A stretch of 62,805 bases of DNA, the filler included, from Diploschistes diacapsis (taxonomy: Eukaryota), in the NCBI GenBank assembly GCA_023645945.1. It is 17 parts of 17 records of this genome, joined end to end, with 100 filler letters (N's around TTAATTAATTAA, not from the genome) between each part and the next. Parts side by side here need not be neighbours in the genome. Positions count along the whole stretch, not along the records: positions 30,764 to 51,451 come from JALAIB010000332.1; 16 more parts are not named here. One strand, written 5' to 3'. Below, in pieces: positions 31,687 through 46,711 of the stretch (position 1 is its first letter; the number at the start of each line of letters is the position of its first letter). Under the pieces are notes generated by a model that saw only the letters and a list, made by a program, of their open reading frames with translations, ran no database searches and was not told the origin of the DNA. The position numbers and the translations under genes were made by a program.

Positions 31687-33395
31687 ATGACGAACGCTGT
31701 AGCGGAAGCAAAGCAGTATTGGGGATACTTGATAGCGGCAGACAAGTCACCAACGCCGAAGTTTGAGCAATTGCTTCTTGGGATTGCACATTACATTGTG
31801 GGTATTGCTCTGTGGAGAAAGATGATCCGAGCTGACGTGAATAGAGCAAGCACGTCGCGCCATGGGATGTCCGTGTACTTACTCCGGCAAAGCTAGCATC
31901 GTTCTACAGACTCGTGGGAGGTAACTATGACGCACTGTTTCTGGAGTGCCCAAGCACATCCCTCGGCTTCATCTACAAATCCTTGGGATGTTTCCACTCC
32001 CTACAGCAAGAAAATGACCCCTTCGCCGCGCCGACCGTGCCGACTTTGACGCCAGCTGGGTTTGTGCGATGGCAGACGGTGCAGCTCCTGTTAAACCCGG
32101 ACGACCAAGTTCGATATTTACAAAAGGCAGTCAAGCGGTTGGAGATAATCAATGGAGGGCCTGGAGGGCCATTCCCCAAGATACTCCCAGCAGAGTGCCT
32201 ACCACGAACACCTGACCCCAAAATGACGAAATGGCATGAAAGGGTGGGGGACAGGCTGCGGATCGAATCTGAGGCTCAGGCCGCAAGATCTGCGCCGCCA
32301 ACAGCTAGAAATCCAAGTTTTCGACCGGCAGATCTCGAGTCCGTGACCGACTTATCCGTTGACAGTCACTCGATGGTCGATGCCAGCGAGTACTTCCAAG
32401 CCAGTTCTACAAGTCCCAAACGGCCAGTCTATACCAAGGCAGTACCTGTACCAGCGACAAATGGCCGGTTTCACAATGCCGACCCCGGCCGTCGAGGCTC
32501 CAGCTACACTTCACGTTCGCCCGATTACGCCGACGGTCCAGCACCCACCTACGGCCGCTATTCTCGTCGATCTCCTCGAAACCCAGAGCCAGCAGCAGTC
32601 GAGCCCGCCTCGTCTTCGTCAGATTCTCGTTCCCCCCCTCGGCAGCACCAGTATGGCCGTACACGGCTAAGTATTCGCCTTTCGGATGCGAAAGACAGGA
32701 GTCCCCGCTCTTACTCAGCCACTCGCAGTCCGGGTTCCCAAGACCCCGTATCCCCATTAAAGGATGAGCTTGGCCGCAGGCACTCGTCGCATCTACTTGC
32801 AAATTACGGAAGGCGTGATTCCATGCCACCACCACCTCAGCCTGTTGCAGCCTCGCAAGCTTCTCAGACACTGTCGCCTCCTTTCTTCGTCTCACAGAAG
32901 GGGCGTAACTCGAATCAATTCTCACCCACTGGGCCCACAGCACCTCCAGGCGGAAGGCAAGCTGCATCCGCGCTGTCACCGCAGAATCAGCCGTATGCAC
33001 GACCTCCACGGAACACGGTGAACTACGGTTCAGGACCGATAGATTCGTGGCGGAGCAAGTTAAATGCTTATGTCAACGGCTCCAACCCGGGCCCCCCAGC
33101 ACCAACGCTCCCGGTGGGAGGCCGCAGGAGAAGCCAGAGTGGAGGTCTGGAAAGCAGCGGCCGGGAGCCGCTTACAGAGGGTGTTAGGTTCGTAGAGGGT
33201 GTCGGCGGGCTGGACGATCGCCGGAGTGGAGGACAAGGGTACGATAGAAAGGATGGTAGTGAAGGAGAGAGAAATAGCAAGAGCCGAAGGAGGAGGGATT
33301 CTGAGCGCGAATGGGAGAGCGAGCTAGAAGACCGCAGGCCCGAAAGGTTGTATGGTCGGAGAGAACGGAGGAGTGGAGAGGTTGGAGAGGTATAG
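31687..33395 (+). CDS. Conserved fungal hypothetical protein (DUF7514-like N-terminal domain, disordered P/S/R-rich tail); intron 31798-31844
   Basis: YWGYLI...PTPKFEQLLLGIAHYI, LTPAKLASFYRLVGGNYD, LTPAGFVRWQTVQLLL; divergent from HOS2 with about 400 bp between starts. Domain name is from recall. Confidence 0.8.
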
Positions 33396-37993: not shown

Positions 37994-39970
37994 ATGCATT
38001 CGTCCAGCGTCCTTCTTCTCTTTGCCTTCTCTGTCTCGCTTACTCTGTCTCTTACGACCCATGTACATGATGCTTCATTCGTCCCTGATGCCGTGCTGCG
38101 CGTCTCCGCCCAGAACGTCAGTATTGGTGGTATCCATCGATATACGACCCTTATCAATGGTACTTTGCCGGGCCCAACCCTCCGCATTACGGAGGGTGAC
38201 ACGGTTTGGATCCGTGTGTACAACGACATGAGCGACCAGAACACGACTGTGGTACGTATGGTTCCAAGCCCAGCCGACAACGGAAGTTGACAATAGACAG
38301 CATTGGCACGGCCTTGCGCAAGCTGCGTACCCTTTCTCTGACGGTACACCACTCGCCAGTCAATGGCCGATTCCGCCGCAGCACTTTTTCGATTACGAAC
38401 TCCAGACAGCAAACGGCTCTGCAGGCAGCTATTGGTACCATTCCCATGTCGGCTTCCAAGCCGTGAGTACTTCAGGGCCTCTCATCGTCGAGGACCGCAA
38501 TACCTCGCCTTACAAGACCGACGGAGAGCGGATTGTTTACTTCCAAGAGCTCTTCAACGAGACCGACACGACCATCGAGCAGGGTCTGGACTCGGATCCT
38601 CTTGTGTGGAGTGGAGAGACTAATGGGTTCATGGTGAACGGGAAAACGATATCAAACTACGGCGTTGTTGACGACTCGTCGGCGACGCTGGACGTTATCA
38701 CCGTCGAGCCTGGCAAGACCTACCGTTTCCGCTTTATTGCTGCGACTTCGCTATCACTAGCCATATTCCAGTTCCAATCGCACGATGGCCTCCAGATTAT
38801 CGAAGCAGACGGCAGCTACACCAAGCCTTGCCCGACTGACATCATGCAGATCGGGACCGGCCAACGCTACAGCGCTCTCCTCAAGACGAAGTCCTGCTCA
38901 GAGCTTCAAAAAACCGGACAGCTCGACTACTACCTCCAGATCGAGTCCCGCGAGCGTCCTTCGAACGTCACCAACTACGCCCTGCTCCGCTACAAAAACA
39001 GCTGCAGCATATCTTCCCCAGCAACCCTCCCAACAAACTCCTACCCCTCGCAGGCCCCGCTGACCCTCCCACCAACCATCAACGGCTTCCTCGACTACAA
39101 GCTCCAACCCATCCAACCAAACTCCTTCCCCTCCAGCAGCGAGGTCACACGGCGCGTAACCCTCAACGTCCAACAAATCAACGACTCCTACGCCATCTGG
39201 CAAGACTCCAACGTAAGCTGGATCCCAGACGCCTCTGATCCCCTGCCACACACCAGCCCCTCCGTCCCCTACCTCGTCGCCCTCTACCAGAACGAATCGG
39301 CCTACCTCCCCAACTACACCGCGGCCGTCGCCAACGGCGGCGTCGACCCGACGACGAAAACCTTCCCCGCCCGCATCGGTGAGGTGCTGGAAATCGTGCT
39401 GCAGCAGGTCGGCGGGCTGGGCGAGAACGGCAACACGGGCGGCGGCGTCGACGTGCACCCCTGGCACGCGCACGGCAGCCATTACTACGACGCGGGGGCG
39501 GGCCCGGGCGCGTTCGATCCGAGCGTCATGGAGGCCCGGCTGAAAGGCACCCAACCCGTGCGCAGGGATACGACGATGCTGTATTGCTACAGCGGGACGG
39601 CGAGCCCGGGCGAGAAGTATGGGTGGCGCGCGTGGAGGATGAGGGTTCAGCAGCCGGGCGCGTGGATGGTGCATTGCCATGTGGTATTGTTGCCCCCTTT
39701 TTAATCCGGTTGCTGTTGCGGTTCGGGTATCATGATGTGATGTGTGCTAATGCTTGGGTACAGTTACAGCACATGTTGATGGGCTTGCAGACGGTCTGGG
39801 TGTTTGGCGACGAGGGCGATCTGTTCGGCAGCAAGGACGGGGTCGGACGGCTGGATGTTAGCGGCTATTTGACGTATGGCGGGAATGTGGTGGGCAACGC
39901 GAGCCATGCGCCGGAGGTGCTGCACTTTGGGGAGGTGGGAGGGCTGAGGAGGATGAGGATGAGGGTGTGA
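37994..39970 (+). CDS. Secreted multicopper oxidase (fungal L-ascorbate-oxidase-like, AA1); introns 38252-38300 and 39684-39763
   Basis: All four Cu motifs present: HWHG, YWYHSH, HPWHAHG, HCHVLQHMLMGL; N-terminal signal peptide. Confidence 0.93.
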
Positions 39971-40294
39971 AGGTGGTTCCGTTGCTGGGGAGGGGAGAGC
40001 GGAGAGCGTGAGTGTGAGCATGAGTGTGAAGTTCGGGGGGGTTGAAAGTTAAAAACATATCCACGGGCGGTTGGTTATAATGTATCTGGTCACAGATAGA
40101 GCCATAGTGTGGTGAAGGAAAGGCAGCCGAGATGCCGGATGGGGCTTGAGGCTCGCTATTTACGCTCGTTCACGTCCAATGTTGTTTGTCAATAGCTATC
40201 TTTGTCGAACGCGTGCCATGCGAGCATGCAACAAGTCTTCCGAGAATTTACAAGTCTCAAAGCATGCAACATTACATCTCACAACCCCCCTGCC

Positions 40295-40332
40295 TCTTCT
40301 TCTTCTTCTTCTTCTTCTTCTTTTTCTTCTTC
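40295..40332. repeat. (CTT)n microsatellite
   Basis: Direct reading. Confidence 0.8.
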
Positions 40333-41178
40333 TGATGAATGGGGCTAGTGGGTTTAATCAGATTATTTAGAAAGTCTTGGTCCGGGCCCCAGATACAACA
40401 TCAAATATGAGATTTCTCCGTTGGCATGGCTCCTGTACGCCTACTGTCGCTCGAGCCTCGAGGACCAATACTTGCGCTGTTTCTATAGCCAAAAAGGGGG
40501 CGGGGGAAGGTTTTTTGTAACGAAGGGAGCGCGGTGAGCGCTTTTCCGAATCAGGCAATTAATTCCTGAAACCGGGTTCTGGCGCACCGAGCCTGAGAGC
40601 GAAGAGCGATGCTGCAGACCAGCAGGGATTCTATAGGGGGGAGAGGCCCGTCAACAATGGGACGTGGTGGGGGAACTGAGCAGCATTTTTTGAGGGTTGA
40701 TAAGTTATCTGAATGCTAAAATAGGTCGAATGAACAGCCCTGGCGGACTGGGATACCAACGGCCGTTCTTCGGGTGTCACAGTGAAACTGATACTAAGAT
40801 TGGTATAGAAAGGTTGCTTCCAAGCCATTAACGCCCATTCACCGTTAGTCGATTATGATTAATGCCCATTAATCGTCCAAACATGGCTTCTAAGCACACG
40901 TGCTGTGCCTTTGGGATCAATCTTGAACGATCTCCAATCCGGTAGGTACGCGTCGTAACCATTGCGGCGGTTCAGCGCTTATCTTGTATAATGGATTGGC
41001 AAACCAGGCGATATCTATAACACAGCTCGTTCTAGGAATTCTCGAAAGTCTATAGTTCAACTATACTTGATCGACTAACAGGCTTTGTCTGGAGCATATA
41101 TAGTGCGAGAAAACCGCACTTGTCGCTAATAAGCCAGAAGAATATTTCCCAAGTTGATGCCTACAGAGTATACACACC

Positions 41179-41917
41179 ATGAAACAAGAACGACTCAATG
41201 ATGCCGCTATTGCTTTATGCCGGATTCTACAAGCAGCCGGTGTAAAGCATGGCATCTTCGGGGGTTACGGCATTGGAGCTCTTGGTGGGCCTCGAGAGAG
41301 CAAGGATGTTGACTGCATCGCGTCCATCACCAACGCAGAGGTGATAGCGATCGTGAATTTCAAAAATGCGTTTGTTTATGTCAACCACGGTAGAGATGAT
41401 TATGCGTCTTTCTTGTGGTCCGATAGGCCAAGCCGAGAACGAGCAAGTCCTGGTAAAAGTTTTCGTGAACTCGGTTCCAGGTAGGATGTCTGTGATCTGT
41501 GGAATATACTGCAAGAGGCTCACAATAGATTTAGGAGCGCTATACGGGATGCACGGAGTCCAAACCTTGATCCGGCAGGTAATCGGTCAGATCACAGGCA
41601 CTGGAAACATATTCCATCTAGACCCAAGTTTTATATTCATAAGGAAAGTACGCGCCGCTGCCCTTCGCGACAAATATCACGACTCCGCAGACATCAGATG
41701 GCTAGAGGGCAACTACAGGCCTTTGCTCATCGAAAGAAGGGATGTTGTCAATCTGGACTATGCGGGTCTGGCGATGAAGCGATATCCAGAGCTTGAATTT
41801 GTATTCAACCGCATCGGAATAGACGTTCAAGCTGCAAAGGCAAGAGTGGCAGCCGTTTATCTCTCGGGGCTGCCTCCTCCGCAGAATGGGGACTTTCAGC
41901 AAGGTCTTCATGGCTGA
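41179..41917 (+). pseudogene. AbiEii/MenT-like nucleotidyltransferase-fold gene with one +1 frameshift near 41430-41446 (pseudogene or base-call error); intron 41481-41534
   Basis: IFGGYGIGALGGPRESKDVDC (GG-x-R-x-S/T-x-D-x-D) and C-terminal KVRAAALRDKYHDSADIRWL; the two halves lie in different frames before the intron. Confidence 0.65.
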
Positions 41918-42803
41918 CAAAGTGCGAAGCGCCGAAGATACTGCACGCAAACTTCTGCTGCGACTCGAATCCTTGACAATCTTCTGTCCACTACTATTAC
42001 GTTTCGTCCGGGGATTCTTCGTACTTGTCTAGCTTCTTCACTGTCGCGTATGAAGCAAGTGATTTCGTTCCCATTGAACTCATCCATGCGTTGTCCTTTC
42101 TTGTCAATGAACCTTCTAATGATTGCGAAATTTTGCTTATTTAACATCGGAAGATGTTGGCGAAGCCATTCCATATCAAGGTCCATGCCATCAACTAGTT
42201 GTTCGATGCCGATAGCGCCAGCGACATCACCGTTCTTACTAAATATGGAGCAGAAGTTGAGTAACAGTTTCGCAAGAGCCGGAAACGGAAGTCTCTCAAG
42301 CTCCTGGGCATCAATATACTCGATGATTTCTTTGCTATAGGCTACCTCGTTTGTGTGCTGTATATGAGGGACCTTTTCTTGCAATCTGCTCGCAGCTGGG
42401 CTCTCCGAAAATAGAGTCACATGAAAGTTCTCCGTAAGGCATCGATAGCGTGGGCATCCGAGTTTGTAAGAGGTATATAGGTTATTCTCTTCCTGCTCTG
42501 CTGTTGCAAAAAGCTCTCTTTGGCCGTTGAAGGCCCTCTTAGCCTTTTCAAATTGAGCAACAGGTATGCAAATCTCAAGATCCTAAAGGTTTTAGCTTAG
42601 ATACGTTTTGAAGAGTGGGAACGTACATGGAGAACCCTTGGAGCATTATAGTAAATTAAAGCCAATTCTCCAACAAAATAATACTCGATCCCAGCCTAGT
42701 TTTTGAAAGACCGGATTGCGGCAAAACATGTATCCGATGGAAATCAGGGGTTAGCATTCACTTTGCTATGCGCGCGTGTAAGTAAGACTTGTACGAAACT
42801 CAT
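41908..42803 (-). CDS. Hypothetical protein with a nucleotidyltransferase-like N-terminus; exons 42627-42695 and 41908-42582, first exon 42762-42803 tentative
   Basis: Spliced AGIEYYFVGELALIYYNAPRVLH|DLEICIP followed by an open 225-codon exon containing IEQLVDGMDLDMEW; GTACGT...TTTAG intron 42583-42626. Confidence 0.65.
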
Positions 42804-42828
42804 AGGGAGCACTACTCAGCCACTCAAA

Positions 42829-43740
42829 ATGCCGACTCTTGGATGGTCATCAGCAAAGCCCAAATTTCAAGTCCTCTCCGATCTTCACCTCGAAATCTGC
42901 AACCAATACTCCACCTATACCATCCCTGTCCGCGCCCCGAACCTCATCCTCGCCGGCGACATCGGGCGCCTAGCCGATTACACGTCCTATCTATCCTTCG
43001 TCACCCGCCAGTGCGCCCAATTTGCACTCGTCTTCCTCGTGCTAGGCAACCATGAGTTCTACGGTACCTCACGCAGCGAGGGCCTGCGTCTCGCGCAGAA
43101 ACTCCAATCAGAGTCCGCTCTGAACGGGCGGCTCGTGGTGCTGCACCAACGTCGCTTCGACGTTGGAGACGTGATGATTCTGGGGTGCACGCTGAACTCG
43201 CGCGTCACGCCTGCGGCGGAAAAAGTGGTGGGGATGGCGGTTGCGGATTTCCGGCGCATTGGGGACTGGACCGTGGCGCAGCACAACGAGGCTTTCGATG
43301 AGGACGTGCGCTGGCTCCGGGAGCAGGTCCGGCTTGTGCAGAGGGAGAATAATGAGCGTAAACTCGGGAATGAAGACCGACAGGCCCAAATCCTCGTCGT
43401 GACGCACCATGCGCCAGCTTTACGTGGGACATCGAGGTCTAGCCAGGAGGGGTCGGCGATCGTGTCGGCGTTTGCGACGGATCTAGTACCCGGGCTAGGT
43501 GACTTCGTAGGTGTGGATTGTTGGGTATATGGGCATACGCATTATAGCAATGCCTTTAAACTGGGCGGAGTTAGGCTCATTAGCAATCAGCGCGGGTATG
43601 TCCTCCCGTCTCCTCAGCAGCCAGAGAGGAGGAAGAACTGGGGAAAATGGATCAGTAGTTTCAAGACAACGCTACTGCGCTCGTCGTACTTTCCCGCTGA
43701 AGAGAACTTATTCGACGTTGAAAAAGCAATCAGCGTTTAA
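42829..43740 (+). CDS. Calcineurin-like metallophosphoesterase, intronless
   Basis: SDLHLE, LAGDIG, LGNHEFY, VTHHAP, YGHTH, SNQRGY motifs intact. Confidence 0.9.
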   Translation: MPTLGWSSAKPKFQVLSDLHLEICNQYSTYTIPVRAPNLILAGDIGRLADYTSYLSFVTRQCAQFALVFLVLGNHEFYGTSRSEGLRLAQKLQSESALNGRLVVLHQRRFDVGDVMILGCTLNSRVTPAAEKVVGMAVADFRRIGDWTVAQHNEAFDEDVRWLREQVRLVQRENNERKLGNEDRQAQILVVTHHAPALRGTSRSSQEGSAIVSAFATDLVPGLGDFVGVDCWVYGHTHYSNAFKLGGVRLISNQRGYVLPSPQQPERRKNWGKWISSFKTTLLRSSYFPAEENLFDVEKAISV

Positions 43741-44209: not shown

Positions 44210-46711
44210 ATGGCGAACCACTCCAAGAAATCCACGCGCAAGTTTGAGAAAAAGCACCTCAAGCCCACCCTCGAGCGGCGCAAAGAATTTGCCAAGATAA
44301 AGCAACGACACCAGGTGCAAGACAAGAAGAAAGCGAGGCGTGCGCAGGAAAATGCCAAGCGTGAGGATGGAGAGGAAGGGACAAAGGTGCAGCAGAAGAA
44401 GGAGAAGGATCAAAAGGCAAAAGAGGCTTTTGAGAGCATGACAGTTGATGAATTCTTTGCGGGAGGTTTTGATGTGCCGGAGCTAGCGGCAGAGAATGGG
44501 AAGGGCAAGAAGGGAACGAAGGGGGAGAAGAGGCTGGGGGAGGGGAAGGCGATTACGGGAAAGCGTAAGAGAGAACAAGAGCGGGAAGAGGAGCAATCAG
44601 CACAAAGTGGCAGCGAAGCGGAATCGGCGGATGAGACAGAAGAAGGGCATAAAGGGGAATTGAAGACGCTAGCGAAGAAGGACACGGAGTTCTATGAGTT
44701 CTTGAAGAAGAACGACCCGGAGCTTCTTGATTTTGATGACAATGACCTAGCGGGCCTGGAGTTGAGCGATGACAAGGAGGCTCCCAAGAAGAAGAAGAAA
44801 GTCCGCGGTCAACAACATGTTGAAGCTGACAACACGGTGACATTAGAGATGGCGGAGAAATGGAAGCAGTCTCTCATCAAACAGCAATCGCTAAGAACTG
44901 TGAGGGAAGTGATACTGGCGTTCCGCGCAGCAGTCCGCACGGACGAGGATGATGGGAAGGAGTACAGATACTCGGTATCTTCACCGGATGTATACCACCA
45001 GATTCTGGTGACTGCGCTTAAACACATACCCGACGTCGTTCAGCATCATGTACCGATCAAAGAGCTCGCATCGGGCAAGGTCCGCGTTCCTACCGATACG
45101 AAAAAGTATAAGACTATCACACCACTCTTGAACTCTCACGCTATCTCTCTCACGCATCTGCTCGAGACCCTTTCTGATGAAGCGACGCTAAAGCTGACTT
45201 TAACCTGCATCCACCCTTTGCTCCCCTACTTCCTGTCCTTCAGAAAAGCCCTCAAGAACTTGGTCAAGACCGTCGTTGGCCTCTGGTCTGACCACTCCAG
45301 CTCTGAGGCAACTAGGATCAGTGCCTTTCTTCTTATCCGAAGATTCTCTGTCATTGGTGACGCGGCAATACGGGAGTCGCTGCTCAAAGCTGCTTACCAA
45401 GGCCTTGTGAAGGGCAGCCGCAACACAACAGTCCACACGCTCGCGGGCATAAACCTAATGAAGAACTCAGCTGTTGATCTTTGGGGAGTTGACCTCGATC
45501 AGAGCTATACGACCGGCTTCACTTACATTCGGCAGCTCGCGATCCACCTCCGCACAACTCTGACACACCCAACGAAGGACTCTTACAAAGCTATATACAA
45601 CTGGCAATACGTGCACTCGCTTGATTTCTGGTCGCGAGTGTTCTCTGCGCATTGCTCGCCAGCAGCGAACCCTCTCCTCAAAAAGCCCACCGACTCTCCG
45701 CTTCATGCCTTGATCTACCCGCTCGTGCAAGTCACTCTCGGGGCACTGAGGCTAATCCCCACACCGACATACTTTCCCCTGAGATTCCATCTGACTCGAT
45801 CCCTTCTACGCATCTCCAGATCTACCACTACTTACATACCCCTCGCGCCAGCGCTGCTCGAAGTGCTGCAATCTCCCGAAGTCAAAGATCCTCCAAAACC
45901 CAGCACTCTAAAGCCTCTCGACTTCCCAACGACCCTTCGCGCTCCGAAACAATATATAAGAACTCGCGTCTACCAAGACGGTGTCATGGAGCAAGTCTCC
46001 GACCTCCTCGCCGAATTCTTCGGCTGCTGGTCTAAGAGCGTGGCCTTCCCCGAGCTTATCATCCCGCCTACCGTTCTTCTGAAGCGCTGGATGAAGGATG
46101 TCTCCACTCCTAACCGCAAGCAGCCACATGACAAGAAAGGCAAGACTAAACGCCCGAATCCTAGGCTCACAGCGCCTATTTCTCTCCTCATTCAAAAGCT
46201 GAACCTAAACGCGGAATACATCGAGCGGCATAGGCGTACGCTGGACTTCGCGCCAAAGGATAGGCAGCAGCTGGAGGGCTTCCTCAGAGATGTGTCCTGG
46301 GAAGACACGCCGATGGGTGCGTTCGTGGCGGGTATTAGGAAACAGAGGGAAGAGAGGGAAAGGTTGTTGGAGAAGAGTCGGCGAGAGGATGAGGAAAGAA
46401 AGAAGAGGGAGAAGGAGGTTGATGAAGAGGAGTCGGTGATTGAGGAGGAAGATGAGGATGAGAGTGAGAGTGATGGAGGTGTTGCTGTGAAAGGGAGGGC
46501 GGCGAAGAAAATGAATGGCAAGGCAAGAGGGAAGCGAGCTGCGGCTGATGATGACGAGGAGGAGGAGGAAGAAGAAGAAGACGATGAGAAGGAATGGGAC
46601 GACGACGACGACGACGTCCTGCCGGATGCTGAAGAAGGCTTCATAGATGACGAAGCTATGGAGGGCGAAGGCGACGAAGAAGATGAGGAGGAAGGGAATG
46701 ATTACAATTAG
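44210..46711 (+). CDS. NOC2: Nucleolar complex protein 2 (60S ribosome biogenesis), intronless
   Basis: KKSTRKFEKKHLK, INLMKNS, FTYIRQLAIHLR, IYNWQYVHSLDFWSRV, YFPLRFH, SVAFPEL and an acidic tail. Confidence 0.95.
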   Translation: MANHSKKSTRKFEKKHLKPTLERRKEFAKIKQRHQVQDKKKARRAQENAKREDGEEGTKVQQKKEKDQKAKEAFESMTVDEFFAGGFDVPELAAENGKGKKGTKGEKRLGEGKAITGKRKREQEREEEQSAQSGSEAESADETEEGHKGELKTLAKKDTEFYEFLKKNDPELLDFDDNDLAGLELSDDKEAPKKKKKVRGQQHVEADNTVTLEMAEKWKQSLIKQQSLRTVREVILAFRAAVRTDEDDGKEYRYSVSSPDVYHQILVTALKHIPDVVQHHVPIKELASGKVRVPTDTKKYKTITPLLNSHAISLTHLLETLSDEATLKLTLTCIHPLLPYFLSFRKALKNLVKTVVGLWSDHSSSEATRISAFLLIRRFSVIGDAAIRESLLKAAYQGLVKGSRNTTVHTLAGINLMKNSAVDLWGVDLDQSYTTGFTYIRQLAIHLRTTLTHPTKDSYKAIYNWQYVHSLDFWSRVFSAHCSPAANPLLKKPTDSPLHALIYPLVQVTLGALRLIPTPTYFPLRFHLTRSLLRISRSTTTYIPLAPALLEVLQSPEVKDPPKPSTLKPLDFPTTLRAPKQYIRTRVYQDGVMEQVSDLLAEFFGCWSKSVAFPELIIPPTVLLKRWMKDVSTPNRKQPHDKKGKTKRPNPRLTAPISLLIQKLNLNAEYIERHRRTLDFAPKDRQQLEGFLRDVSWEDTPMGAFVAGIRKQREERERLLEKSRREDEERKKREKEVDEEESVIEEEDEDESESDGGVAVKGRAAKKMNGKARGKRAAADDDEEEEEEEEDDEKEWDDDDDDVLPDAEEGFIDDEAMEGEGDEEDEEEGNDYN

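What the first reader, a model, noticed from the sequence alone, without database searches (positions are those of the whole stretch)
41179..43740. Compact module of two nucleotidyltransferase-like genes and a metallophosphoesterase
Seen: three tightly packed genes on one contig, between a multicopper oxidase and NOC2. Gene A has GG-x-R-x-S-x-D-x-D and K-x2-A-x3-R-x-K-x-H-D-x2-D; gene B has GELALIYYNAPRVLHDLE; gene C is an intact calcineurin-like phosphoesterase. Established: the gene A motifs resemble pol-beta-superfamily NTases of the AbiEii/MenT toxin group, and calcineurin-like phosphoesterases hydrolyse phosphoester bonds including nucleotide substrates. Inference: a fungal nucleotidylation writer/eraser or toxin-antidote cassette, possibly decaying.
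Basis: partly seen in the sequence, partly recalled or inferred. Interest (0 to 1): 0.75.

Follow-up and report, generated by a model that had tools for sequence, protein, structure and literature searches.

The report
Fungal toxin-like three-gene module, one broken
Three tightly packed genes of a lichen-type fungus (two relatives of bacterial growth-arresting nucleotide-adding toxins and a phosphate-removing enzyme) also sit together in other fungi and, in part, in bacteria, which points to an undescribed control module, although one of the three genes is broken here.

Summary
Between a multicopper oxidase and NOC2 lie three genes: A (+, 41179-41917), B (-, 41908-42803) and C (+, 42829-43740).

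- **Gene A** belongs to a Pezizomycotina-wide family of about 230 aa. It carries all four DUF1814 (AbiEii/MenT) motifs and the Ser that is phosphorylated in MenT1/MenT3. In this window it has a 1-nt frameshift and differs at 8 of 50 strongly conserved positions.
- **Gene B** is intact, with two introns. Its family has no Pfam model, but a confident model of it (pLDDT 95.7) also matches MenT1 best. It lacks motif III and the phospho-Ser.
- **Gene C** is an intact metallophosphoesterase.

New evidence on linkage:
- Public fungal proteins include 5 B-A and 3 B-C fused or merged models, so the genes lie next to each other in other orders as well.
- Of 80 bacterial loci with a C-type phosphoesterase, 7 carry a true AbiEi-AbiEii pair within 1 kb, some with overlapping stop and start codons.

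The best reading is a conserved NTase-NTase-phosphoesterase control module, analogous to AbiE/MenAT, whose toxin-like member is decaying here. The mechanism (a phospho-switch or an eraser) is inferred, not shown. Toxicity, binding and synteny across fungal genomes stayed untested.

The parts
41179..41480 (+). Gene A exon 1. The ATG is at 41179. Motif I (FGG) is at 41257-41265 and motif II (RESKDVD) at 41293-41313. A +1 frameshift lies between about 41427 and 41446. The conserved Glu codon reads Lys (aaa) at 41456-41458.
   Evidence: Searches give the frames. One search gives the read-through with X (272.5 bits against the family HMM, best break after codons 83-89). One search gives the motif counts.
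41481..41534 (+). Gene A intron: 54 nt, in frame, gtagga...tttag.
   Evidence: the family HMM scores 272.5 bits with the intron removed and 263.0 with it kept. P0003 aligns across the junction.
41535..41917 (+). Gene A exon 2. Motif III (KVRAAALR) and motif IV (HDSAD) lie at 41645-41692. The stop is at 41915-41917.
41908..42582 (-). Gene B exon 3. It starts DLEICIP and holds the family's most conserved block, IEQLVDGMDLDMEW. The family normally ends at IPG(R/Y)x, which here is nt 42001. In the window 30 more codons run to the stop at 41910-41908 and overlap the end of gene A.
42583..42626 (-). Gene B intron 2: 44 nt, gtacgt..ctaagc..tttag.
42627..42695 (-). Gene B exon 2: AGIEYYFVGELALIYYNAPRVLH, the NTase motif I/II region.
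   Evidence: this exon adds 34 bits to the family HMM score. The homologues read VGE.ALNYYNVPRV.H.
42696..42761 (-). Gene B intron 1: 66 nt, gtgaat..gctaac..ctag. It removes the in-frame TAG.
42762..42803 (-). Gene B exon 1: MSFVQVLLTRAHSK. The start is only weakly supported.
   Evidence: this exon adds only 1.7 bits. Its pattern resembles the N-terminal helix of homologues.
42804..42828 (.). A 25-bp spacer between the divergent start codons of B and C.
42829..43740 (+). Gene C: an intact metallophosphoesterase of 303 aa with SDLHLE, AGDIG, GNHEF, THHAP and GHTH.
   Evidence: Metallophos 4.1e-9. (43% identity to the MPE half of P0093). (292 bacterial relatives).

Best explanation
This is a conserved Pezizomycotina three-gene module.

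Shown:
- Gene A is a DUF1814 (AbiEii/MenT-type) nucleotidyltransferase. It has motifs I-IV and the S-x-D-x-D serine that is the auto-phosphorylation site in MenT3 and MenT1.
- Gene B belongs to a family without a Pfam model that has the same bi-lobed NTase fold. It keeps a D/E-x-E plus D/E acidic set but lacks motif III (K..R) and the serine.
- Gene C is a dedicated metallophosphoesterase. Its bacterial cousins sit in operons with AbiEi-AbiEii and beside other toxin and defence genes.
- The three genes are adjacent in other fungi, where B-A and B-C appear as fused or merged models.
- In this window A is broken by a 1-nt frameshift and has drifted at conserved sites, while B and C are intact.

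Inferred:
- A is the growth-arresting, toxin-like enzyme. By analogy it would add nucleotides to an RNA 3' end such as tRNA.
- A is held inactive by phosphorylation of the motif-II serine.
- B is its partner or regulator.
- C resets the system, most likely by removing that phosphate and less likely by removing the added nucleotides.
- Losing A first while the partners stay intact is the order expected if A is the harmful member.
For: Family and fold of A:
- 38 Ascomycota relatives of its first 85 residues, 51-67% identical.
- 23 of 44 family rows hit PF08843 at E<=0.01, best 9.9e-7.
- The family profile hits MenT1 (8an4) at 9.5e-7 and 5uvd at 1.5e-4.
- The AF2 model of member P0011 has pLDDT 96.9. 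Its Foldseek top hits are 5uvd at 8e-8, MenT1 at 3.9e-7 and MenT3/TglT at about 4e-6.
- Motif conservation in alignment A3: G28 42/42, R39 41/42, S/T41 38/42, D45 39/41, K138 39/43, R145 42/43, D150 42/43, D153 41/43.
- The Ser aligns with the Thr of MenT1's RFTRDVD. PDB entry 8rr5 is titled as MenT1 phosphorylated at T39.

Fold of B:
- The AF2 model has pLDDT 95.7. Its Foldseek top hits are MenT1 at 5.1e-6 and then ANT(2'')-Ia.

Linkage in fungi, among 185 stored proteins:
- 5 solid B-A fusions: P0018, P0028, P0032, P0037 (Hypomontagnella, Nemania, Whalleya, Epichloe) and P0042.
- 3 B-C fusions: P0093, P0141 and P0167. Their MPE halves match gene C at 4.5e-56, 7.7e-37 and 1.5e-16.

Linkage in bacteria:
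- 7 of 80 loci with a C-type MPE have a full PF08843 AbiEii within 1 kb, E 1e-30 to 1e-39, with AbiEi-type ORFs beside it.
- No full copy lies in the 653 kb further away, against 7 in the 153 kb nearby.
- The AbiEii stop and the MPE start overlap as ATGA in L030.
- All 7 have R-[FY]-S-E-D-x-D.

Decay of A:
- The frameshift.
- 8 of 50 conserved columns changed, against 0-3 in members of similar overall identity.
- B deviates at only 2 of 20 conserved columns.

Literature (passages read): AbiEii, MenT1 and MenT3 are neutralised by antitoxin-induced auto-phosphorylation, and Ser/Thr phosphatases reverse it in vitro. The cellular reactivating phosphatase is still open.
Against: - No experiment bears on toxicity, substrate or phosphorylation.
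- The window's own A and B pieces hit no Pfam or NCBIfam family.
- A and B are not significantly alike by sequence: BLASTP E 9.6 and hhalign probability 5.7%.
- The TM-scores of both models to MenT1 are only 0.42-0.59.
- Only 8 of 72 B-bearing proteins show linkage. For the other 64 the tools give no context, and fused models may be annotation merges.
- 73 of the 80 bacterial loci have no full AbiEii near the MPE. The MPE also sits beside HipA-like kinases, AAA ATPases with exonucleases, and restriction-modification genes, so it may be a general defence-island gene.
- The fungal C clade lies outside the bacterial AbiE-linked subclades on a long branch.
- Gene C gets no PADLOC hit.
- The metallophosphoesterase sequence does not say whether the substrate is a phosphoprotein or a phosphodiester.
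- Some A-family members lack D43, E93 or the Ser, and B-C fusions have a degenerate HD.E, so catalysis is not universally conserved.
- The frameshift could be an assembly error.
Confidence: 0.5

Rival explanations
1. Writer/eraser on nucleic acid or nucleotide. A and/or B add nucleotides to an RNA end or make a nucleotide signal. C is a phosphodiesterase that trims or degrades that product, not a protein phosphatase.
For: - The bacterial C relatives weakly resemble a putative phosphoesterase family (TIGR03729, 1e-12) and CpdA-type cAMP phosphodiesterase, both below cut-off.
- In 5 of 80 loci the MPE lies between an AAA ATPase and a DEDDh exonuclease, a nucleic-acid context.
- RNase PH, which removes nucleotides after CCA, is discussed in connection with MenT3 (passage).
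Against: - No direct evidence for the substrate.
- The MPE also sits directly after HipA-like kinases in 3 loci and a Pkinase-domain ORF in 1 locus, which fits a phosphoprotein substrate better.
- The conserved phospho-acceptor Ser in A and in all 7 MPE-linked bacterial AbiEii fits the phospho-switch.
Confidence: 0.2
2. Not a conflict system. A and B are small-molecule or housekeeping nucleotidyltransferases, for example ANT(2'')-like drug or metabolite modification, and C is an unrelated hydrolase kept nearby for co-regulation.
For: - ANT(2'')-Ia and LnuA are among the Foldseek hits of both models.
- 2 of 44 A-family rows hit Aminoglyc_resit weakly.
- The fungal structural relative 5uvd is described only as an antigen, with no toxin role.
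- Dy et al. noted that fungal DUF1814 genes lack antitoxin neighbours.
Against: - The best sequence and structure matches are MenT1, MenT3 and 5uvd, not the ANT enzymes.
- The same MPE clade is operon-coupled to true AbiEi-AbiEii toxin-antitoxin pairs in bacteria.
Confidence: 0.15
3. Gene A is intact in the living fungus, and the frameshift is an assembly or consensus error of a metagenome-derived assembly.
For: - There is only one break and no in-frame stop in either part.
- All four motifs are kept.
- The public protein with identical letters comes from a MAG.
Against: - The break is not in a homopolymer.
- The public model P0002 reads the same shifted letters.
- A also differs at 8 of 50 conserved columns, including E93K, against 0-3 in comparably similar members.
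Confidence: 0.15
4. The three genes are chance neighbours with no functional tie.
For: - For 64 of 72 B-bearing proteins no context could be seen.
- Gene order and orientation differ between this window (A> <B C>) and the fused models (B>A, B>C).
Against: - There are 5 B-A and 3 B-C fused or merged models from several orders.
- An independent MPE-AbiEii linkage exists in bacteria, with near/far counts of 7/0.
- Spacing in the window is extreme: start codons 25 bp apart and overlapping 3' ends.
Confidence: 0.05

Closest known systems
AbiE (AbiEi/AbiEii) and MenAT toxin-antitoxin systems (DUF1814 NTase toxins; PF08843)
   Same: Gene A's family has motifs I-IV as defined by Dy et al. 2014 (passages). 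It also has the S-x-D-x-D phospho-acceptor, the bi-lobed fold, and profile and Foldseek hits to MenT1 and MenT3.
   Different: - The gene is eukaryotic and has an intron.
- There is no AbiEi/COG5340 or MenA antitoxin. The neighbours are a second NTase-fold protein and a metallophosphoesterase.
- Pfam scores sit near or below the gathering cut-off.
- Here the gene is frameshifted.
- Toxicity is untested.
Pb27-type antigen of Paracoccidioides brasiliensis (PDB 5UVD, 'antigenic nucleotidyltransferase-like protein')
   Same: It is a fungal DUF1814-like protein and the best structural match of the A-family model (E 8e-8, TM 0.54/0.57). The 2026 AbiEii preprint names it as a DUF1814 member.
   Different: It is only a distant sequence relative (profile E 1.5e-4), so it belongs to another subfamily. 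I found no report of a partner NTase or phosphoesterase for it. The structure paper itself (Coitinho et al. 2019) is not in the library; I saw only its citation.
Bacterial AbiEi-AbiEii-metallophosphoesterase loci (found here; the MPE resembles PADLOC candidate PDC-S10)
   Same: The same MPE clade as gene C (25-33% identity over residues about 12-258) lies directly beside a DUF1814 NTase. Spacing is operon-like, with an ATGA overlap.
   Different: - The partner is an HTH antitoxin (AbiEi_1, AbiEi_4 or DUF6088), not a second NTase.
- Only 7 of 80 loci show it.
- Gene C itself has no PDC-S10 hit.
- The fungal MPEs form their own long-branched clade.
ANT(2'')-Ia / LnuA antibiotic nucleotidyltransferases
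   Same: They share the fold class and are Foldseek hits for both models at E 4e-4 to 1e-3.
   Different: The matches are weaker than to MenT1. These enzymes lack DUF1814 motif IV context and have no linked phosphoesterase.

Membership tests
DUF1814 / AbiEii (PF08843), gene A | Motif I hG[G/S] and motif II with Arg and DhD (Dy et al. 2014) | tested here: met
   FGG at residues 27-29 and RESKDVD at residues 39-45 of the window's A. In the family: G28 42/42, R39 41/42, D43 36/42, D45 39/41.
DUF1814 / AbiEii (PF08843), gene A | Motif III KLxAaxxR | tested here: met
   KVRAAALR in the window, with Ala where an aromatic residue is usual. In the family: K138 39/43, R145 42/43.
DUF1814 / AbiEii (PF08843), gene A | Motif IV +DxxD | tested here: met
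   HDSAD, with His at the '+' place. In the family: D150 42/43, D153 41/43.
DUF1814 / AbiEii (PF08843), gene A | Pfam model score at or above the gathering cut-off | tested here: inconclusive
   The window pieces and P0002 give 0 hits. Of the homologues, 23 of 44 hit at E<=0.01, and 4 of 12 reach 22.5 bits.
DUF1814 / AbiEii (PF08843), gene A | Bi-lobed MenT-like NTase fold | tested here: met
   Tested on homologue P0011, not on the window's broken protein. pLDDT is 96.9. Foldseek gives 5uvd at 8e-8, MenT1 at 3.9e-7 and MenT3 at about 4e-6, with TM 0.42-0.59.
DUF1814 / AbiEii (PF08843), gene A | Open reading frame able to give the whole protein | tested here: not met
   A +1 frameshift lies between nt 41427 and 41446.
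AbiE / MenAT toxin-antitoxin system | An adjacent antitoxin gene (AbiEi/COG5340, COG4861 or MenA), usually upstream in one operon | tested here: not met
   The only neighbours are B (NTase fold, no Pfam) and C (Metallophos). No HTH or AbiEi hit appears in the pieces scanned.
AbiE / MenAT toxin-antitoxin system | Ser/Thr two residues before the first motif-II Asp, the phospho-acceptor (MenT3 S78, MenT1 T39) | tested here: met
   RESKDVD in the window. S/T is present in 38 of 42 rows and aligns with the Thr of MenT1's RFTRDVD. Phosphorylation itself is not testable here.
AbiE / MenAT toxin-antitoxin system | The toxin arrests growth and the partner neutralises it | not testable with these tools
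   This needs expression assays.
DUF1814-like, gene B | Motifs I-IV and a Pfam hit | tested here: not met
   - Motif I is VGE.
- Motif II is PRV.HD.E: D39 is D/E in 23/24 rows and E41 is kept in 26/26.
- Motif III K/R is absent.
- Motif IV is VDGMD: D173 is kept in 34/34.
- 0 of 35 members hit any shared Pfam family.
- hhalign against family A gives probability 5.7%.
DUF1814-like, gene B | MenT-like NTase fold | tested here: met
   Tested on homologue P0053. pLDDT is 95.7. The Foldseek top four hits are MenT1 chains at E 5e-6 to 7e-5, with TM 0.42-0.53.
Calcineurin-like metallophosphoesterase (PF00149), gene C | Pfam score above the cut-off, plus the metal-binding signature D-x-H, G-D, G-N-H-[DE], H, G-H-x-H (signature recalled, not from a call) | tested here: met
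   37.6 bits against a cut-off of 21.5. SDLHLE, AGDIG, GNHEF, THHAP and GHTH are all present.
PADLOC candidate PDC-S10, gene C | A hit to model PDLC04908 | tested here: not met
   The window's C gives 0 hits at E<=0.01. Three bacterial relatives hit at 3e-11 to 1e-9.

The most novel reading that the evidence does not exclude
Filamentous ascomycetes carry a three-part, phosphorylation-gated DUF1814 toxin module, a eukaryotic counterpart of AbiE/MenAT. A Pfam-less NTase-fold protein (B) takes the place of the HTH antitoxin. The dedicated metallophosphoesterase (C) is the reactivating phosphatase that work on bacterial AbiE/MenAT has left open. The same phosphoesterase clade is a so far unremarked third gene of some AbiE operons in Bacteroidota.
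Probability: 0.2. Interest if true: 0.85.

Novelty: new variant of a known kind. Interest (0 to 1): 0.6.

Why it matters
DUF1814 toxins (AbiEii, MenT) are a current topic in bacterial toxin-antitoxin and phage-defence work. Their control by auto-phosphorylation was recently described, and which phosphatase reactivates them in cells is still open.

Fungal DUF1814 genes have been noticed only as Pfam labels of unknown function.

A conserved trio in fungi, together with a matching AbiEi-AbiEii-phosphoesterase arrangement in bacteria, does three things:
- It gives a concrete, testable candidate for the missing phosphatase or eraser.
- It defines a new NTase-fold family (B).
- It offers a possible case of a toxin-control module working in a eukaryote.

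For this particular window the module is partly dead, so its value is as a pointer to the family rather than as a working example.

Tried and rejected
- **Pfam and NCBIfam on the window's own A and B pieces and on P0001-P0003:** nothing relevant.
- **phmmer of P0002 against PDB:** only lectins at E about 0.4-0.65.
- **Word-index search with B exon 3:** only the window's own protein among 411 candidates.
- **BLASTP of A against B:** E 9.6. hhalign of the B family against the A family gave probability 5.7%, with only the N-terminal 95 columns in register. A sequence-level A-B relationship is therefore not claimed.
- **B-family profile against PDB:** nothing.
- **B model against viral structures:** only generic NTase folds.
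- **Scan of bacterial and archaeal genomes for B:** 57 pattern matches, 0 confirmed. A first try with the 35-row alignment was rejected as too diverse.
- **Local hmmsearch with the fungal A and B profiles on 5662 ORFs of the 80 bacterial loci:** 0 hits. This was a false negative for AbiEii, which Pfam then found. The reverse search, bacterial AbiEii HMM against the fungal proteins, also gave 0 hits.
- **Tree of the MPEs:** the fungal clade is not nested in any AbiE-linked bacterial subclade, so no transfer of the whole module is claimed.
- **Rfam and repeat scans of 39.5-44.5 kb:** nothing relevant.
- **Complex prediction for A with B:** queue full, then one job lost, then the tool was withdrawn. 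No verdict, so A-B binding stayed unchecked.
- **Not available:** Synteny across fungi stayed unchecked except through fused gene models.
Full report
**Observation**

The stretch 41179-43740 holds three genes between a multicopper oxidase (Cu-oxidase domains at 38232-39701) and Noc2 (44210-46708, E 1e-120).

Gene A starts at ATG 41179.
- Frame 1 reads MKQERLND...FGGYGIGALGGPRESKDVDC... to about nt 41440.
- The +1 frame carries ...VLVKVFVNSVPG, then a 54-nt GT..AG intron (41481-41534), then ...KVRAAALRDKYHDSADIRWL... to the stop at 41915-41917.
- Read through with X at the break, A matches an HMM of its family built without the window's rows, end to end (272.5 bits, E 7e-84).
- The best break follows codons 83-89 (nt 41427-41446). 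Removing the intron scores 9.5 bits better than keeping it.

Gene B lies on the minus strand.
- The in-frame TAG that seems to cut its N-terminus lies inside a 66-nt intron with a GCTAAC branch site.
- With this intron and a second one of 44 nt, B gives 261 aa without a stop. It matches its family HMM at positions 14-233 of 234 (232.8 bits).
- The quoted string GELALIYYNAPRVLH|DLE spans the second intron.

Gene C (42829-43740, 303 aa) is an intact Metallophos protein: 37.6 bits against a cut-off of 21.5.

**Where the window comes from**

The N-terminal half of A is letter-identical to NCBI protein LQ340_003158 of a Diploschistes diacapsis MAG (P0002). The window is therefore from this lichen-forming fungus or a very close relative. 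That public model reaches 208 aa only by splicing round the frameshift, which drops the conserved middle of the protein.

**Gene A is a DUF1814 (AbiEii/MenT-type) nucleotidyltransferase**

- The window's own pieces hit nothing in Pfam or NCBIfam.
- The first 85 residues find 38 Ascomycota proteins, mostly 227-232 aa and 51-67% identical. They come from Eurotiomycetes, Sordariomycetes, Leotiomycetes, Dothideomycetes and others.
- Of 44 rows of the family alignment A3, 23 hit PF08843 at E<=0.01, best 9.9e-7. In a separate scan of 12 of the hits, 4 reach the gathering score.
- The family profile hits the solved MenT1 toxin (8an4) at 9.5e-7 and the Paracoccidioides 'nucleotidyltransferase-like antigen' 5uvd at 1.5e-4.
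- An AlphaFold2 model of member P0011 (pLDDT 96.9) matches 5uvd (8e-8), MenT1 (3.9e-7) and MenT3/TglT (about 4e-6) best, at TM 0.42-0.59.
- A language-model look-up had already pointed to AbiEii clusters (0.97).
- The four motifs that define DUF1814 (Dy et al. 2014, passages) are all present in the window's A: FGG, RESKDVD, KVRAAALR and HDSAD. They are highly conserved in the family.
- The Ser of RESKDVD is S/T in 38 of 42 rows. It aligns with the Thr of RFTRDVD in MenT1. It has the same S-x-D-x-D register as MenT3 S78/D80/D82, the site whose phosphorylation neutralises these toxins (PDB titles).

**Gene A is decaying here**

Besides the frameshift, the window's A differs from the family at 8 of 50 columns that are at least 85% conserved. 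One of these is the Glu of VLVEIF, which is E in 35 of 41 other members and K here. Members of similar overall identity differ at 0-3 such columns, and only 5 of 40 members, all distant, differ at more. There are no in-frame stops, so either the damage is recent or the single extra base is an assembly error. I give the error about 0.15.

**Gene B is a second NTase-fold protein of an unnamed family**

- A word-index search found nothing. The key came from the hits.
- P0018 (Hypomontagnella), P0028 (Nemania), P0032 (Whalleya) and P0037 (Epichloe) are 411-489 aa long. Their N-terminal halves are B homologues and their C-terminal halves are A homologues.
- A profile of these fusions, searched against 1.84 billion representatives, gave 449 hits at E<=1e-3. 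Most are stand-alone B (about 235-250 aa, typically ending ..IPGYE) or stand-alone A.
- No Pfam family is shared by any of the 35 B rows, and the B profile hits nothing in PDB.
- The AlphaFold2 model of member P0053 is confident (pLDDT 95.7, pTM 0.92). Its four best PDB matches are MenT1 chains (E 5e-6 to 7e-5), followed by ANT(2'')-Ia, MenT3 and 5uvd.
- B keeps an acidic set: D39 is D/E in 23 of 24 rows, E41 is kept in 26 of 26, and D100 in 26 of 34 (E in the window). It also has an invariant VDGMD-like block (D173 34/34) that looks like motif IV.
- B has no motif III Lys/Arg, and has Val/Ile/Leu/Cys where A has the phospho-Ser.
- By sequence alone A and B are not significantly related.
- The window's B differs at only 2 of 20 conserved columns, within the family's range of 0-3, so it looks functional.

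**The three genes are linked elsewhere**

| Class | Count |
|---|---|
| A only | 113 |
| B only | 63 |
| B-A | 6 (5 solid; P0114 is a doubtful 128-aa piece) |
| B-C | 3 (P0093, P0141, P0167) |

- The MPE halves of the B-C proteins match gene C specifically: 4.5e-56, 7.7e-37 and 1.5e-16, with 43% identity to P0093.
- Whether these are true fusions or merged gene models, they require the genes to be adjacent and on the same strand. The junctions imply gaps of only tens of codons.
- In the window the order is A> <B C>. The 3' ends of A and B overlap, and the start codons of B and C are 25 bp apart.
- So the arrangement changes but the neighbourhood persists across Lecanoromycetes and Sordariomycetes.
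- The limit of this evidence is that only 8 of 72 B-bearing proteins are informative. No fungal genome context could be fetched with the tools on hand.

**A parallel in bacteria**

- B has no bacterial or archaeal relative by the pattern scan: 57 matches, none confirmed.
- C has 292 such relatives. The best 80 loci, mostly Bacteroidota at 25-33% identity, were fetched.
- Pfam on 71 of 96 same-strand neighbours, a local iterative search and a follow-up scan show a full PF08843 AbiEii (E 1e-30 to 1e-39) within 1 kb of the MPE in 7 of 80 loci.
  - L006, L009 and L030 are arranged AbiEi-AbiEii-MPE.
  - L036, L043 and L065 are arranged MPE-AbiEi-AbiEii.
  - L061 has AbiEii on the other strand.
  - L017 and L031 hold remnants.
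- The ORFs beside these AbiEii genes hit AbiEi_1, AbiEi_4, DUF6088 or NF047376.
- In L030 the AbiEii stop and the MPE start overlap as ATGA.
- All 7 full AbiEii copies lie in the 153 kb within 1 kb of the MPE, and none in the other 653 kb of the loci. They fall into about four independent groups on the MPE tree.
- All 7 carry R-[FY]-S-E-D-x-D.
- The same MPE clade also follows HipA-like kinases in 3 loci. One of these, L031, still has AbiEi and an AbiEii remnant upstream.
- It also sits in AAA-MPE-DEDDh exonuclease triads in 5 loci.
- Three bacterial MPEs hit the PADLOC candidate PDC-S10, but the fungal C does not.
- On the tree the fungal MPEs form their own long-branched clade outside the Bacteroidota group, so I do not claim transfer of a whole module.

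**How it most likely works**

Shown:
- The folds, the motifs and the conserved phospho-acceptor.
- Linkage in fungi and, for C with DUF1814, in bacteria.
- A is broken while B and C are intact.

Taken from the literature (passages read):
- MenT and AbiEii toxins add pyrimidines to tRNA 3' ends.
- They are switched off by antitoxin-induced auto-phosphorylation of the motif-II Ser/Thr.
- Ser/Thr phosphatases reverse this in vitro.
- The cellular reactivator is unknown.

Inferred:
- In the fungal module A is the harmful NTase and B is its partner or regulator. B is the hub, since it is the one fused to either A or C.
- C resets the switch, most likely as a phosphoprotein phosphatase acting on A. 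I put the module reading with this mechanism at about 0.5 overall and the phosphatase step itself at about one in three.
- The main rival is that C is a phosphodiesterase that erases the nucleotides or a nucleotide signal (0.2).
- A non-conflict, small-molecule role is also possible (0.15).
- That the toxin-like gene is the one that has broken fits the order of decay expected of toxin-antidote sets. This is a single case.

**Comparison with what is known**

- It works like AbiE/MenAT in its catalytic part, but it is not a member of that system. The defining antitoxin gene is absent, the genes have introns, and B has no counterpart in the described systems.
- Fungal DUF1814 genes were noted in 2014 as lacking antitoxin neighbours. 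They appear in recent comparative-genomics papers only as a Pfam label of unknown function.
- Full-text searches for AbiEii with 'metallophosphoesterase' (1 paper, listing only: a bacteriophage genome paper, judged off topic from its title and abstract) and with 'phosphoesterase' (2 papers; one read in passages and unrelated, one seen only in the listing: a phage counter-defence editorial), for DUF1814 with 'fungal' (3 papers; passages read in two, one seen only in the listing), and for Pb27 with 'nucleotidyltransferase' (3 papers; passages read in two, one seen only in the listing) found no description of the trio or of an AbiE-linked phosphoesterase. Subscription journals are not covered by that library.

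**Verdict**

It is a new variant of a known kind: a conserved fungal NTase-NTase-phosphoesterase module with a bacterial echo, partly dead in this window. A-B binding (tool unavailable), toxicity and genome-wide synteny remain open.

Noticed in passing
window 42804-42828: The start codons of B (minus strand) and C (plus strand) are only 25 bp apart, head to head. Their promoters or 5' UTRs must therefore overlap each other's coding sequence.
   Followed up: no
window 41908-42003: Gene B runs 30 codons past the point where its family ends (..IPGRN, as in P0153). Right after the Asn codon (42003-42001) come one g and then taa tag tag (42000-41991) in the neighbouring frame. This suggests a 1-nt insertion that removed a triple stop. 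The extension overlaps the 3' end of gene A.
   Followed up: partly
window 41179-41917 (protein P0002): The public gene model with identical letters (208 aa) gets round the frameshift by using two invented introns. It omits the conserved strand VLV(E/K)VF and about 45 residues around it.
   Followed up: partly
window 41000-43500: Genes A and B have 45-49% G+C. The core of gene C has 62%, and the neighbouring oxidase has 55-64%.
   Followed up: no
alignment A3, around the intron site of gene A (window 41481-41534): Homologues P0016, P0019 and P0027 carry 12-19 extra residues exactly where the window has its 54-nt in-frame intron. These are probably the same intron left in their gene models.
   Followed up: no
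proteins P0093, P0141, P0167: In the B-C fused forms the B half has lost the HD.E acidic motif. P0093 reads MAIE and P0141 reads NTLG. So B's catalysis seems dispensable when it is fused to the phosphoesterase.
   Followed up: no
proteins P0028, P0032, P0034: These B-A or A-only proteins are named 'ser/Thr protein phosphatase' in NCBI, although none has a phosphatase domain. The name was probably copied from a model merged with a C-type gene.
   Followed up: no
L031:3371-6747; also L048 and L052: A HipA-like kinase gene sits directly before the C-type phosphoesterase, and the ORFs overlap. In L031 an AbiEi gene and an AbiEii remnant lie just upstream, as if one toxin had replaced the other.
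   Followed up: partly
L007, L008, L010, L023, L055: A recurring triad of AAA ATPase, C-type phosphoesterase and DEDDh exonuclease in Saccharimonadales and Verrucomicrobiota. The exonuclease hits PADLOC PDC-S48 and a Cas-associated DEDDh model.
   Followed up: partly
window 40290-40337: A (CTT)n microsatellite lies in the spacer between the oxidase and gene A.
   Followed up: no
window 31845-33392: An ORF of 516 aa with a DUF7514 domain, E 6.5e-46.
   Followed up: no
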